Source: a virus (lineage: Duplodnaviria > Heunggongvirae > Uroviricota > Caudoviricetes). From it: a DNA stretch of 50,414 bases. The notes under the pieces were generated by a model. That model ran no database searches and was not told the DNA's origin. It saw only the letters and a list, made by a program, of their open reading frames with translations. A program made the translations under genes and the position numbers. Location of the stretch: IMG/VR virus record IMGVR_UViG_2718217859_000006; one strand, written 5' to 3'. How positions within the stretch are numbered: position 1 is the first letter of the stretch; each line of letters begins with the position of its first letter. Positions 15,629 through 19,230 of the stretch are shown in pieces.

Positions 15629-15844
15629 ATGTCAAATAAAATGACTGGTTTAGTAAAATGGTTTAACGCTGATAAAGGTTTCGGCTTTATTTCTCCTGTT
15701 GATGGTAGTAAAGATGTGTTTGTGCATTTTTCTGCGATTCAGAATGATAATTATCGAACCTTATTTGAAGGTCAAAAGGTTACCTTCTCTATAGAGAGTG
15801 GTGCTAAAGGTCCTGCAGCAGCAAATGTCATCATTACTGATTAA
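15629..15844 (+). CDS. cspB: Cold-shock protein, CspB type
   Basis: 71 aa [38 protein letters not shown]... with RNP1/RNP2 motifs. Confidence 0.85.
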
Positions 15845-16207: not shown

Positions 16208-16378
16208 TCAGGCTACAGCTTTAAGATTTGTCTGGAATACTTTGTTGCAATGAGGGCAGATCAAAAGGGCACCTTTTTGTACTCTTGAAAAACTGTGTTC
16301 TGACTCTTGGGTGCAGTTTGGGCAGGAACATTTAACGAGATAATTACGGCGTGATTTTGAGTTTTTACGTTCTGACAT
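16208..16378 (-). CDS. Small zinc-ribbon protein (56 aa, CxxC...CxxC), YnfU/YdaE-like
   Basis: MSERKNSKSRRNYLVKCSCPNCTQESEHSFSRVQKGALLICPHCNKVFQTNLKAVA, from the internal Met of a 73-aa ORF. Confidence 0.65.
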   Translation of the reverse strand: MSERKNSKSRRNYLVKCSCPNCTQESEHSFSRVQKGALLICPHCNKVFQTNLKAVA

Positions 16379-18515: not shown

Positions 18516-18728
18516 ATGTCTAACAAAATGACTGGTTTAGTGAAATGGTTTAACCCTGAAAAAGGTTTTGGTTTCATCACGCCGAAAGATGGCAGCAAAG
18601 ATGTGTTTGTCCATTTCTCAGCAATTCAGAGCAACGATTTCAAAACATTAACTGAGAATCAGGAAGTTGAATTTGGTATTGAGAACGGACCTAAAGGTCC
18701 TGCCGCTGTTCATGTAGTGGCGCTTTGA
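18516..18728 (+). CDS. cspI: Cold-shock protein, CspI type
   Basis: 70 aa [45 protein letters not shown]... Confidence 0.85.
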
Positions 18729-18999
18729 GGTAGACAATATTACAAACCATATTCACTTTAGATGCCCGTGTTGTCATGGTTCCCAGTATAGAACATCATC
18801 TTTTGATGTTTCTGACATGAATCCTTTCGGGGCAAAATGTATCTTTTGTAAATCAATGATGATTACATTTGATAATATTTCACAATACTTAAATGCCAGC
18901 CGTCTGTCGTTGGATTTAAAAAAGTGAAAATGAAGGCTCCTTCGGGAGCTTTTTTGCTTGGTGTCTATTCGATGGATACTCACATACTACGGTAACATC

Positions 19000-19230
19000 A
19001 TGAAAAAAATCATAGTTTTTTTTAACTCTGAACCAGCAGTGGTAGTGCCAGCGATGACTGGAGTTAACACCATCATGCGTGAATATCCAAATGGCGAAAA
19101 AACACACCTTACTGTAATGGCCGCAGGGTTTCCATCTCTGACCGGAGATCATAAAGTCATTTATGTAGCCGCGGATCGACATGTTACTTCAGAAGAAATT
19201 CTGGAAGCAGCAATAAGGCTCTTGAGTTGA
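19000..19230 (+). CDS. Hypothetical small protein
   Basis: 76 aa from ATG (MKKIIVFFNSEPAVVVPAMTG...); weak SD. Confidence 0.4.
   Translation: MKKIIVFFNSEPAVVVPAMTGVNTIMREYPNGEKTHLTVMAAGFPSLTGDHKVIYVAADRHVTSEEILEAAIRLLS

What the first reader, a model, noticed from the sequence alone, without database searches (positions are those of the whole stretch)
18730..18958. Zinc-ribbon ORF after cspI with no ATG/GTG/TTG start but a good SD and its own terminator
A frame encoding ...HFRCPCCHGSQYRTSSFDVSDMNPFGAKCIFCKSMMITFDNISQYLNASRLSLDLKK runs from just after the cspI stop to about 18928 and is followed by a terminator hairpin (GGCTCCTTCGGGAGC plus T6). It has the same Cys architecture as the ynfU-like protein at 16208-16378. 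There is no canonical start upstream of the first Cys pair, but GAGGT lies 7 nt before an in-frame ATT at about 18740, so AUU initiation or a start-codon mutation are both possible.
Basis: seen in the sequence. Interest (0 to 1): 0.45.

Follow-up and report, generated by a model that had tools for sequence, protein, structure and literature searches.

The report
ynfQ: AUU-started cold-shock zinc-ribbon gene
The ORF after cspI is the already annotated E. coli Qin-prophage gene ynfQ, a 62-residue zinc-ribbon protein that public annotation starts at the rare codon AUU; comparison with relatives supports that start and shows the gene is functional, not broken.

Summary
cspI stops at 18726-18728. 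GAGGT lies at 18727-18731. Seven bases later an in-frame ATT (18739) opens a 62-codon frame that ends at TGA 18925-18927. A hairpin plus T6 follows at 18932-18955. No ATG, GTG or TTG lies between the upstream in-frame stop (TAG 18715) and the first Cys pair.

This is a known gene. RefSeq annotates exactly 18739-18927 as ynfQ ('cold shock small protein YmcF', WP_071524604.1; UniRef name YNFQ_ECOLI). It matches Pfam PF23641 YmcF-like end to end (E 1.7e-32).

Its paralogue ymcF follows cspG in about 5,400 of 5,426 E. coli genomes. It has the same 10-nt gap, the same SD overlapping the csp stop, and the same ATT.

I compared 85 loci from about 25 genera. The homologous codon is ATT or ATC in all 47 loci where a csp stop lies 9-11 nt upstream. 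ATG sits at or near that position in 31 of 38 loci without an adjacent csp. The protein is under strong purifying selection among ATT lineages (pN 0.10-0.17, pS 0.7-0.99).

AUU initiation is therefore the best reading, probably aided by coupling to cspI translation. The claimed YnfU resemblance is only generic: two CxxC knuckles. Already known; modest interest.

The parts
18516..18728 (+). cspI, the upstream cistron (70 aa cold-shock protein); stop TGA 18726-18728
   Evidence: ORF list; RefSeq annotation of an identical locus
18715..18717 (+). Nearest in-frame stop (TAG) upstream in the ynfQ frame. It bounds the possible start region to 8 codons, none of them canonical.
18727..18731 (+). Shine-Dalgarno GAGGU overlapping the cspI stop codon, 7 nt before the ATT
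   Evidence: Sequence. T[AG]AGG is invariant in 27 distinct csp-coupled sequences while the 7-nt spacer varies.
18739..18741 (+). ATT, the annotated ynfQ start codon
   Evidence: RefSeq CDS start. The homologous codon is ATT, ATC or ATG across about 25 genera.
18739..18927 (+). ynfQ CDS, 62 codons plus TGA; YmcF-like family
   Evidence: Pfam PF23641 positions 1-62 of 62, E 1.7e-32; exact sequence is named YNFQ_ECOLI in UniRef
18763..18774 (+). First Cys knuckle, C9-P-C11-C12 (followed by H13)
   Evidence: C9 and C12 invariant, C11 and H13 nearly invariant in 36 homologues
18838..18849 (+). Second Cys knuckle, C34-I-F-C37
   Evidence: C37 invariant and C34 nearly invariant; beta-hairpins predicted around both knuckles
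18817..18819 (+). Internal ATG (Met27), the first canonical start in frame. It is not conserved, so it is not the family's start.
   Evidence: AGA in another ynfQ allele and CGA in ymcF; R, K, S, Q and other residues in homologues
18932..18955 (+). Intrinsic-terminator-like hairpin (UUCG loop) plus T6, 5 nt after the ynfQ stop
   Evidence: dG -12.4 kcal/mol, z -2.26. The core stem was flagged, but only on the minus strand; the plus-strand site did not meet that scan's tail rule. Equivalent hairpin plus T run after the stop in most genera, with different stems.
18930..18995 (+). ynfR, an annotated 21-aa ORF that starts 3 nt after the ynfQ stop and contains the terminator hairpin
   Evidence: RefSeq annotation; YnfR-SPA accumulates after cold shock (PMC6001520)

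Best explanation
The feature is ynfQ, the second cistron of a cspI-ynfQ transcription unit carried as cargo by the Qin lambdoid prophage. It sits just after the lysis genes and is a paralogue of the chromosomal cspG-ymcF pair.

Translation most likely starts at AUU 18739. The start is directed by a GAGGU Shine-Dalgarno that overlaps the cspI stop codon. Ribosomes finishing cspI 10 nt upstream probably assist it, either by termination-reinitiation or by locally loading ribosomes.

The weak start codon keeps YnfQ output well below that of CspI. It may also make output depend on IF3 fidelity, and so on temperature.

The product is a 62-residue protein with two CxxC knuckles, a generic zinc ribbon followed by a C-terminal helix. 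Its constant linkage to csp genes suggests a role beside the Csp RNA chaperones in cold acclimation.

A hairpin-T6 terminator ends most transcripts 5 nt after the stop.

Shown here: the gene's identity, the absence of a canonical start, conservation of the SD and of ATT/ATC, purifying selection, and the conserved terminator position.
Inferred: use of AUU in vivo, coupling, the throttle or gate role, zinc binding, and the cellular function.
For: - RefSeq annotates exactly these coordinates as ynfQ, with the CDS beginning at the ATT. UniRef names the sequence YNFQ_ECOLI. Pfam YmcF-like matches end to end.
- No canonical start lies between TAG 18715 and Cys9.
- ymcF, the paralogue after cspG, keeps the 10-nt gap, AAGG and ATT at 73% nucleotide identity. 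Substitutions become codon-like only from the ATT onward.
- In E. coli the ymcF-frame codon 8 positions upstream is TTG in some strains and TAG in others. That stretch is therefore not coding in this frame.
- Census: all 47 csp-coupled loci (at least 14 genera, including Dickeya) have ATT or ATC. Of 38 uncoupled loci, 25 have ATG at the same codon and 6 have an in-frame ATG within 7 codons.
- AGG is invariant in the spacer.
- pN is 0.10-0.17 against pS 0.7-0.99 between ATT lineages.
- All 80 prophage or viral copies examined are identical in the initiation region and in the protein.
- The module occurs on sequenced lambdoid phage genomes such as Tritos.
- Terminator.
- Co-regulation with cspI: listed as 'cold shock induced' and co-induced with cspI and ynfN (PMC11228462); co-repressed with cspG, cspH, cspI and ymcF (PMC11728337).
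- AUU gave 6-8 fold lower output than AUG or GUG in a reporter, and about half of second-cistron initiation at short gaps was reinitiation (PMC3592434).
- IF3 discrimination against AUU is reported to be temperature-sensitive (PMC5499595).
Against: - I could not read any direct evidence of the N-terminus or of initiating ribosomes at 18739. The paper I recall as the source of ymcF/ynfQ (Zhang et al. 2018, Mol Cell, PMC5910227) is not held.
- The link between ATT and coupling is a correlation among related genomes. There are perhaps 7-8 independent uncoupled contexts.
- There are exceptions. Seven Pseudescherichia-type loci keep ATT without an adjacent csp. A Morganella phage has the coupled layout with ATG.
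- In extracts, AUU mRNA competed worse at low temperature (PMC5499595). That argues against a simple 'better in the cold' role.
- No conserved RNA structure masks the SD, so coupling by unmasking is not supported.
Confidence: 0.85

Rival explanations
1. The start codon was lost. This copy and the other ATT copies are untranslated remnants of an ancestrally ATG-initiated gene.
For: Orthologues with ATG at exactly this codon exist in Klebsiella, Raoultella, Enterobacter, Leclercia, Silvania, Kluyvera and a Morganella phage. AUU is a poor start (PMC3592434).
Against: The 62-codon frame is intact in every ATT/ATC locus examined, across at least 14 genera and both E. coli paralogues. Non-synonymous divergence is 0.10-0.17 while synonymous sites are saturated. 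The Cys ligands and the core motif are invariant. AGG is conserved at SD distance. An untranslated remnant would have decayed.
Confidence: 0.03
2. Translation starts at a canonical codon elsewhere: the internal ATG 18817 (a 36-aa product), or in relatives an upstream in-frame ATG or TTG inside the csp 3' end (the 70-71 aa forms annotated in some Citrobacter, Salmonella and phage records).
For: ATG 18817 is the only canonical start in the window's frame. Several Citrobacter loci have an ATG 9 codons upstream with no stop in between, and some records annotate 70-71 aa proteins.
Against: - Met27 is not conserved: AGA or CGA in other alleles and in ymcF.
- A 36-aa product would lack the first, invariant Cys knuckle.
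- The upstream ATG or TTG is a by-product of csp codon choice (AAT GTT GTG). In the window, in another ynfQ allele and in O157 ymcF that position is TAG. It is absent in Kosakonia, where the csp stop itself is in frame.
- No SD precedes it.
Confidence: 0.05
3. YnfQ sequences are made as a CspI-YnfQ fusion by a prfB-like +1 frameshift at CUU UGA G (18723-18729), whose +1 frame is the ynfQ frame.
For: The window has the same CUU-UGA slippery codon and stop pair as the prfB frameshift site (prfB site from my own knowledge). The +1 frame is open from 18718 into ynfQ. A natural in-frame csp-ymcF fusion exists in Citrobacter sedlakii.
Against: The motif is not conserved. Orthologues end csp with CTC TAA, GTA TAA, CGC TAA or CGT TGA. 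No SD-like stimulator lies at the prfB spacing upstream. A conserved SD-spacer-ATT/ATC/ATG layout is the signature of independent initiation.
Confidence: 0.02

Closest known systems
ymcF (E. coli; Pfam PF23641 YmcF-like; 'cold shock small protein YmcF')
   Same: About 65% identical protein of the same 62-aa length. Same position directly after a cold-shock gene (cspG), with the same 10-nt gap, SD overlapping the stop, ATT start and terminator after the stop. A parallel downstream gene follows (gnsA versus gnsB).
   Different: ymcF is chromosomal and present in about 5,400 of 5,426 E. coli genomes. ynfQ rides on Qin-type lambdoid prophages and phages and is present in about 2,100 genomes. The downstream neighbours differ: ymcE versus ynfR-ynfN.
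infC and pcnB, the two classical AUU-initiated E. coli genes
   Same: AUU start with an SD. infC also sits just after the stop of an upstream gene (a UAA GGU AUU junction), is cold-stress inducible, and keeps a phylogenetically conserved AUU (PMC3592434; PMC5499595).
   Different: For infC the AUU is the sensor of IF3 autoregulation. No such logic is evident for a zinc-ribbon miniprotein. In this family AUU alternates with AUC and AUG among orthologues, whereas infC's AUU is described as extensively conserved. IF3 dependence was not tested here.
YnfU (PF23499 / NF038384; window 16208-16378, minus strand)
   Same: Small (56 aa) Qin-encoded protein with two CxxC-type knuckles, lying near a csp gene (cspB). 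YnfU and YmcF-like genes are adjacent in E. ludwigii and S. blattae.
   Different: BLASTP finds no alignment between them and they belong to different Pfam and NCBIfam families. YnfU starts with ATG on the opposite strand and is not coupled to a csp.
Zinc ribbons of TFIIE-alpha, TFIIB, ribosomal proteins eL37/eL43 and the MqsA N-terminal domain
   Different: No significant structural or sequence match. The resemblance is at the level of a generic fold and carries no functional transfer.

Membership tests
YmcF-like small proteins (Pfam PF23641) | Match to the family HMM above the gathering score, over the full length | tested here: met
   111.8 bits against a cut-off of 27; residues 1-62 on profile positions 1-62
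YmcF-like small proteins (Pfam PF23641) | Conserved core HFRCPCCHGSQYRTS...NPxGAKCIFCK with four Cys ligands | tested here: met
   18 columns are invariant, including F7, C9, P10, C12, G14, Q16, R18, G31-A32-K33 and I35-K38. C11, H13 and C34 are nearly invariant.
YmcF-like small proteins (Pfam PF23641) | Cold-shock induction, as the product name claims | not testable with these tools
   Literature only: ynfQ is listed as 'cold shock induced' and co-varies with cspI (PMC11228462; PMC11728337). The primary paper is not held.
AUU-initiated genes (infC/pcnB class) | No canonical start codon available upstream of the conserved domain | tested here: met
   The seven codons between TAG 18715 and the ATT, and codons 2-8 up to Cys9, include no ATG, GTG or TTG. 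The same holds in Kosakonia and Pseudescherichia.
AUU-initiated genes (infC/pcnB class) | SD at functional spacing, with the near-cognate start conserved in orthologues | tested here: met
   GAGGU is followed by 7 nt. AGG is invariant. ATT or ATC is present in 47 of 47 csp-coupled loci.
AUU-initiated genes (infC/pcnB class) | Experimental proof that initiation occurs at the AUU (N-terminus, toeprint or TIS profiling) | not testable with these tools
   No accessible paper gave it. The RefSeq annotation is the only external support.
AUU-initiated genes (infC/pcnB class) | Expression depends on IF3 discrimination | not tested
   Needs infC fidelity mutants or IF3 titration.
YnfU family (PF23499 / NF038384) | Match to the YnfU HMMs, or detectable sequence similarity | tested here: not met
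   YnfQ does not hit PF23499 or NF038384. BLASTP finds no alignment at E <= 100. Both proteins hit NF047912 only weakly and below its cut-off.
Zinc ribbon / rubredoxin-like metal site | Two CxxC knuckles on beta-hairpins that bind one metal ion | tested here: inconclusive
Rho-independent terminator | G+C-rich stem-loop directly followed by a T run, at a conserved position | tested here: met
   -12.4 kcal/mol plus T6. A hairpin plus T run lies within about 5-35 nt of the stop in Escherichia, Citrobacter, Salmonella, Kosakonia, Siccibacter, Klebsiella, Raoultella and Atlantibacter, with different stems. Termination efficiency in vivo was not tested.
prfB-type +1 programmed frameshift | CUU-UGA slippery site with an upstream SD-like stimulator, conserved in orthologues | tested here: not met
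   CUU UGA is present in the window, but there is no stimulator at the prfB spacing and the motif is not conserved.

The most novel reading that the evidence does not exclude
In this family the near-cognate start (AUU or AUC) is kept only where the gene is translationally coupled to a cold-shock gene 9-11 nt upstream. Wherever that csp has been lost, an ATG has replaced it or has appeared next to it.

This would make cspI-ynfQ and cspG-ymcF natural cases in which a non-canonical start depends on termination-reinitiation. It may also make them a second class of AUU genes, besides infC, whose output reads out IF3 fidelity, which is relaxed in the cold. The result would be a translational cold gate layered on the transcriptional one.
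Probability: 0.35. Interest if true: 0.55.

Novelty: already known. Interest (0 to 1): 0.3.

Why it matters
AUU-initiated genes are very rare in E. coli. A 2017 paper still counted only infC and pcnB (PMC5499595). ynfQ and ymcF are two more, and gene finders that allow only ATG, GTG and TTG miss them. Older records call a truncated 39-aa ymcF or nothing at all.

The gene itself is already in RefSeq, UniProt and Pfam, so the finding adds no new object.

What this analysis adds is comparative evidence that the AUU is functional rather than a lesion. It also adds a testable regularity: the weak start goes with tight coupling to a csp gene. That bears on how bacteria set protein ratios within cold-shock operons and on when reinitiating ribosomes accept near-cognate starts. 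The function of the conserved zinc-ribbon protein is still unknown.

Tried and rejected
- Conserved RNA hairpin masking the SD and start. The window alone folds to -16.8 kcal/mol with the SD paired, but z is only -1.3. RNAalifold on 27 distinct csp-coupled sequences gives no structure there (-1.9 kcal/mol, no covariation). Rejected.
- Second ATT at 18751 as the start. It is CTC in ymcF. Rejected.
- Homology to YnfU. No BLASTP alignment and different families. Rejected, apart from the generic fold.
- Literature on the experimental start site. Seven searches found no accessible paper describing ymcF or ynfQ initiation. Zhang et al. 2018 is not held.
- A naming trap: the 'ynfQ' of VanOrsdel et al. 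2018 is a different 37-aa ORF between ydfJ and ydfK, apparently the gene now listed as ynfT (same start coordinate 1632890).
- Viral-contig scan for diverse phage copies. All 80 loci kept were identical E. coli-type copies, which is uninformative for diversity.
- Corrected dN/dS. Synonymous sites are saturated, so only pN and pS are reported.
- My second csp-detection regex misclassified CspG. Coupling calls for Escherichia ymcF rest, not.

Full report
**1. What is in the sequence**

The window around the finding reads cspI (18516-18728, ATG to TGA), then 10 nt, then a 62-codon frame from ATT 18739 to TGA 18925-18927. GAGGT (18727-18731) overlaps the cspI stop and lies 7 nt before the ATT.

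In the ynfQ frame the nearest upstream stop is TAG 18715-18717. The codons between it and the first Cys are TGG CGC TTT GAG GTA GAC AAT ATT ACA AAC CAT ATT CAC TTT AGA. None is ATG, GTG or TTG. The first canonical start in frame is ATG 18817, after the first Cys pair.

Five nucleotides after the stop, AAGGCUCC-UUCG-GGAGCUUU plus a T6 run (18932-18955) folds at -12.4 kcal/mol, and 6 of 200 shuffles do as well. The consensus scan found the core stem, although it flagged it on the minus strand.

**2. What it is**

A megablast against 5,426 complete E. coli genomes finds the stretch in 2,148 of them. The features under the match are annotated cspI, ynfQ (or ymcF), ynfR and ynfN.

In strain DH5alpha the ynfQ CDS (WP_071524604.1, 'cold shock small protein YmcF') maps exactly to window 18739-18927. 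RefSeq therefore starts it at the ATT. The exact protein, written with Met1, is in the public collection under the UniRef name 'Protein YnfQ, YNFQ_ECOLI' on more than 1,000 contigs. It matches Pfam PF23641 'YmcF-like' over all 62 positions (E 1.7e-32).

The neighbourhood is rrrQ, rzpQ, cspI, ynfQ, ynfR, ynfN, gnsB, ydfO. This is the cargo region after the lysis genes of the Qin lambdoid prophage. The same module is present in sequenced phage genomes such as Escherichia phage Tritos, where it is likewise annotated.

The finding is therefore a known, named gene.

One naming trap: the 'ynfQ' of VanOrsdel et al. 2018 (PMC6001520) is a different 37-aa ORF between ydfJ and ydfK. The y-ome table now orders the genes ynfN, ynfR, ynfQ, rzpQ, which places ynfQ at the present locus. 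It lists ynfT first, and the region's start coordinate (1632890) equals that ORF's.

**3. The paralogue**

A more sensitive blastn finds a 72-75% identical copy in 5,413 of 5,426 genomes. This is ymcF, directly after cspG and followed by ymcE and gnsA. The layout is the same: csp stop, 10 nt, ATT.

In the alignment the ATT is invariant and so is AGG(T) of the SD. The remaining spacer bases differ without pattern (TAGACAAT versus TTGCCGTT). From the ATT onward the differences become codon-like: ACA/ACT, CAC/CAT, AGA/CGC, TGC/TGT.

The second ATT of ynfQ (18751) is CTC in ymcF. Met27 (ATG 18817) is AGA in another ynfQ allele and CGA in ymcF. Neither is a conserved alternative start.

In E. coli ymcF the in-frame codon 8 positions upstream of the ATT is TTG in some strains and TAG in O157. 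This is a synonymous change in cspG, and it shows that this stretch is not coding in the ymcF frame.

**4. Start-codon census across genera**

A protein search returned 132 homologues, nearly all from Enterobacteriaceae and mostly 62 aa, beginning M-[TIS]-x-x-I-H-F-R-C-P-C-C.

I fetched DNA for 80 genome loci. I added 9 loci for more distant members and one Morganella phage. I then read the codon homologous to 18739 in each.

| Context | Loci | Codon at the homologous position |
|---|---|---|
| csp stop 9-11 nt upstream | 47 | ATT or ATC in all 47 |
| No intact csp directly upstream | 38 | ATG at the same codon in 25; in-frame ATG within 7 codons in 6; no ATG in 7 |

The 47 coupled loci break down as follows:
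- ATT: Escherichia (both paralogues; coli, albertii, ruysiae, whittamii), Shigella, Citrobacter, Trabulsiella, Yokenella, Kosakonia, Scandinavium, Intestinirhabdus, Pluralibacter and Dickeya.
- ATC: Salmonella and Siccibacter.

The 38 uncoupled loci break down as follows:
- ATG at the same codon (25): the Klebsiella oxytoca and K. pneumoniae groups, K. aerogenes, Raoultella, Kluyvera, Enterobacter, Leclercia, Silvania, Shimwellia pseudoproteus and a second Citrobacter braakii copy. This count also includes C. sedlakii, where csp and ymcF are fused in one frame.
- In-frame ATG within 7 codons (6): Atlantibacter at codon 2, an E. asburiae-like locus at -3, S. blattae at -6 and E. ludwigii at -7.
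- ATT with no ATG (7): Pseudescherichia-type loci.

The Klebsiella and Raoultella loci still carry a roughly 25-nt remnant of a csp 3' end (…aatgttgtagca…) in front of the SD. Loss of the csp there is therefore secondary.

The Morganella phage has the coupled layout (TAAGG-N7) with ATG. Coupling therefore does not exclude ATG. Rather, the near-cognate start is almost confined to coupled contexts.

These loci are related. I count roughly 7-8 independent uncoupled contexts, so this is a pattern and not a statistic.

**5. Is the ATT copy alive?**

Over codons 2-50, pairs of ATT/ATC lineages differ at 10-17% of non-synonymous sites. Examples are ynfQ against ymcF, Citrobacter, Kosakonia, Scandinavium, Yokenella or Salmonella. 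Synonymous sites are saturated at 69-99%.

The frame is intact in every such locus: 62 codons as a rule, 57-64 in a few. The Cys ligands and the core motif are invariant. All 80 viral-contig copies examined are identical in the initiation region and in the protein.

A gene that had lost its start would not look like this. Its implication, that this copy has lost its start, is not.

**6. How it most likely works**

The SD overlaps the cspI stop. The spacer length is fixed at 9-11 nt. No conserved secondary structure covers the site (RNAalifold -1.9 kcal/mol).

Reporter work shows AUU giving 6-8 fold lower output than AUG or GUG. It also shows that at short intercistronic distances about half of second-cistron initiation comes from reinitiating ribosomes. 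That study included an infC-like UAA GGU AUU junction (PMC3592434).

I therefore read cspI-ynfQ as a bicistronic unit. Ribosomes that terminate on the heavily translated cspI are handed to an SD-anchored AUU. The weak codon holds YnfQ far below CspI.

Whether AUU also acts as a temperature gate is open. IF3's discrimination against AUU is reported to weaken at low temperature, which has been used to explain cold expression of infC. Yet AUU mRNA competed worse in cold extracts (PMC5499595).

Transcriptome papers list ynfQ as cold-shock induced and show it moving together with cspI, ynfN and ymcF (PMC11228462; PMC11728337).

From memory, ymcF and ynfQ were first reported from cold-shock ribosome profiling by Zhang et al. 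2018 (Mol Cell). I could not open that paper, so this remains unverified here.

**7. The terminator**

A hairpin followed by a T run lies within about 5-35 nt of the stop codon in Escherichia, Citrobacter, Salmonella, Kosakonia, Siccibacter, Klebsiella, Raoultella and Atlantibacter. The stems differ: GGCUCC/GGAGCC, GGCCAG/CUGGCC, CAGGUCAG/CUGACCUG, GAGGCCA/UGGCCUC, GCCCCG/CGGGGC. Position is conserved but sequence is not, as expected for a functional terminator that closes the csp-ymcF unit.

In the window the hairpin lies inside the annotated 21-codon ynfR (18930-18995). Tagged YnfR accumulates after cold shock (PMC6001520), so some transcripts must read through.

**8. The protein**

AlphaFold2 with 36 homologues gives a moderate model: mean pLDDT 75.8, rising to 86-89 over residues 11-40. 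It shows short strands around both Cys knuckles and a C-terminal helix at residues 44-58.

The evidence thus supports a generic zinc ribbon and gives no transferable function. Persistent linkage to csp genes is the only functional hint.

YnfU (16208-16378, minus strand; PF23499, NF038384) shares the two-knuckle plan. It has no detectable sequence similarity to YnfQ. The two families are, however, neighbours next to csp genes in E. ludwigii and S. blattae.

**9. Rivals**

- Lost start or pseudogene: contradicted by purifying selection (about 0.03).
- Canonical start elsewhere, either Met27 or an upstream ATG or TTG inside the csp 3' end: these codons are not conserved, are interrupted by TAG in several Escherichia loci including the window, and lack an SD (about 0.05).
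- A prfB-like +1 frameshift at CUU UGA G (18723-18729) producing a CspI-YnfQ fusion. The motif is there and the +1 frame is the ynfQ frame. It is absent from most orthologues and has no stimulator (about 0.02).

**10. Verdict**

The object is already annotated and belongs to a curated family.

What this analysis adds is the association between near-cognate starts and tight coupling to a csp gene. That is a testable hypothesis of moderate interest.

Noticed in passing
window 18930-18995 (+): ynfR (21 aa) starts 3 nt after the ynfQ stop, and its coding sequence contains the ynfQ terminator hairpin and T run. YnfR-SPA is reported to be strongly cold-shock induced (PMC6001520). The terminator must therefore be leaky or regulated, possibly by Csp-type antitermination (that idea is from my own knowledge and was not tested).
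   Followed up: partly
window 18723-18729 (+): cspI ends with CUU UGA G, the same slippery codon and stop pair as the prfB +1 frameshift site. The +1 frame is the ynfQ frame. The motif is not conserved in orthologues (CTC TAA, GTA TAA, CGC TAA, CGT TGA).
   Followed up: partly
L011 about 1240-1689 (Citrobacter sedlakii NBRC 105722): The csp gene and the ymcF homologue lie in one open frame with no csp stop, which predicts a Csp-YmcF fusion. This locus has ATG at the ymcF start position.
   Followed up: partly
L020, L022, L023, L026, L028, L030, L054 around 1481-1510 (Pseudescherichia-type loci): These loci keep an ATT start without an adjacent csp. An 8-codon mini-ORF (ATG AAA AAA GGA TAC TAT TAT TAC TAA) overlaps the ATT and ends 3-4 nt after it. 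It could substitute for csp as the upstream translated ORF.
   Followed up: no
L091 1201-1341 (Morganella phage IME1369_01, KY653118.1): An unannotated YmcF-like ORF (MIIALFFQCPCCSGTQYRTS...) lies 9 nt after a phage csp gene. The SD overlaps the stop, but the start is ATG. The family therefore extends to Morganellaceae phages and is missed by their annotation.
   Followed up: partly
L089 905-1395 (E. ludwigii) and L173 404-898 (Shimwellia blattae): A YnfU-family gene on the minus strand lies directly upstream of the YmcF-like gene, with csp genes nearby. The two zinc-ribbon miniprotein families thus co-occur around csp genes, as they do within 2.5 kb in the window (ynfU 16208-16378, cspB 15629-15844).
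   Followed up: no
L006 (labelled Veillonella parvula MAG) and L060 (labelled Mucilaginibacter MAG): These contigs carry cspI-ynfQ or cspG-ymcF sequence whose start region matches E. coli exactly. The MAG bins are probably contaminated with Escherichia DNA.
   Followed up: no
L021, L025, L031, L038, L042, L176, about 1455-1500: Klebsiella oxytoca-group, Raoultella and one Citrobacter braakii copy keep a roughly 25-nt relic of a csp 3' end (cctgcggtagtgaatgttgtagca) in front of an ATG-initiated ymcF homologue. An intact csp lies about 430-540 nt upstream in some of them.
   Followed up: partly
window 19000-19230 (+): RefSeq annotates ynfN here as 76 aa (MKKIIVFF...). Phage Tritos annotates only the shorter 51-aa form that starts at the internal MREYPNGEK. 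The true start of ynfN seems unsettled.
   Followed up: no
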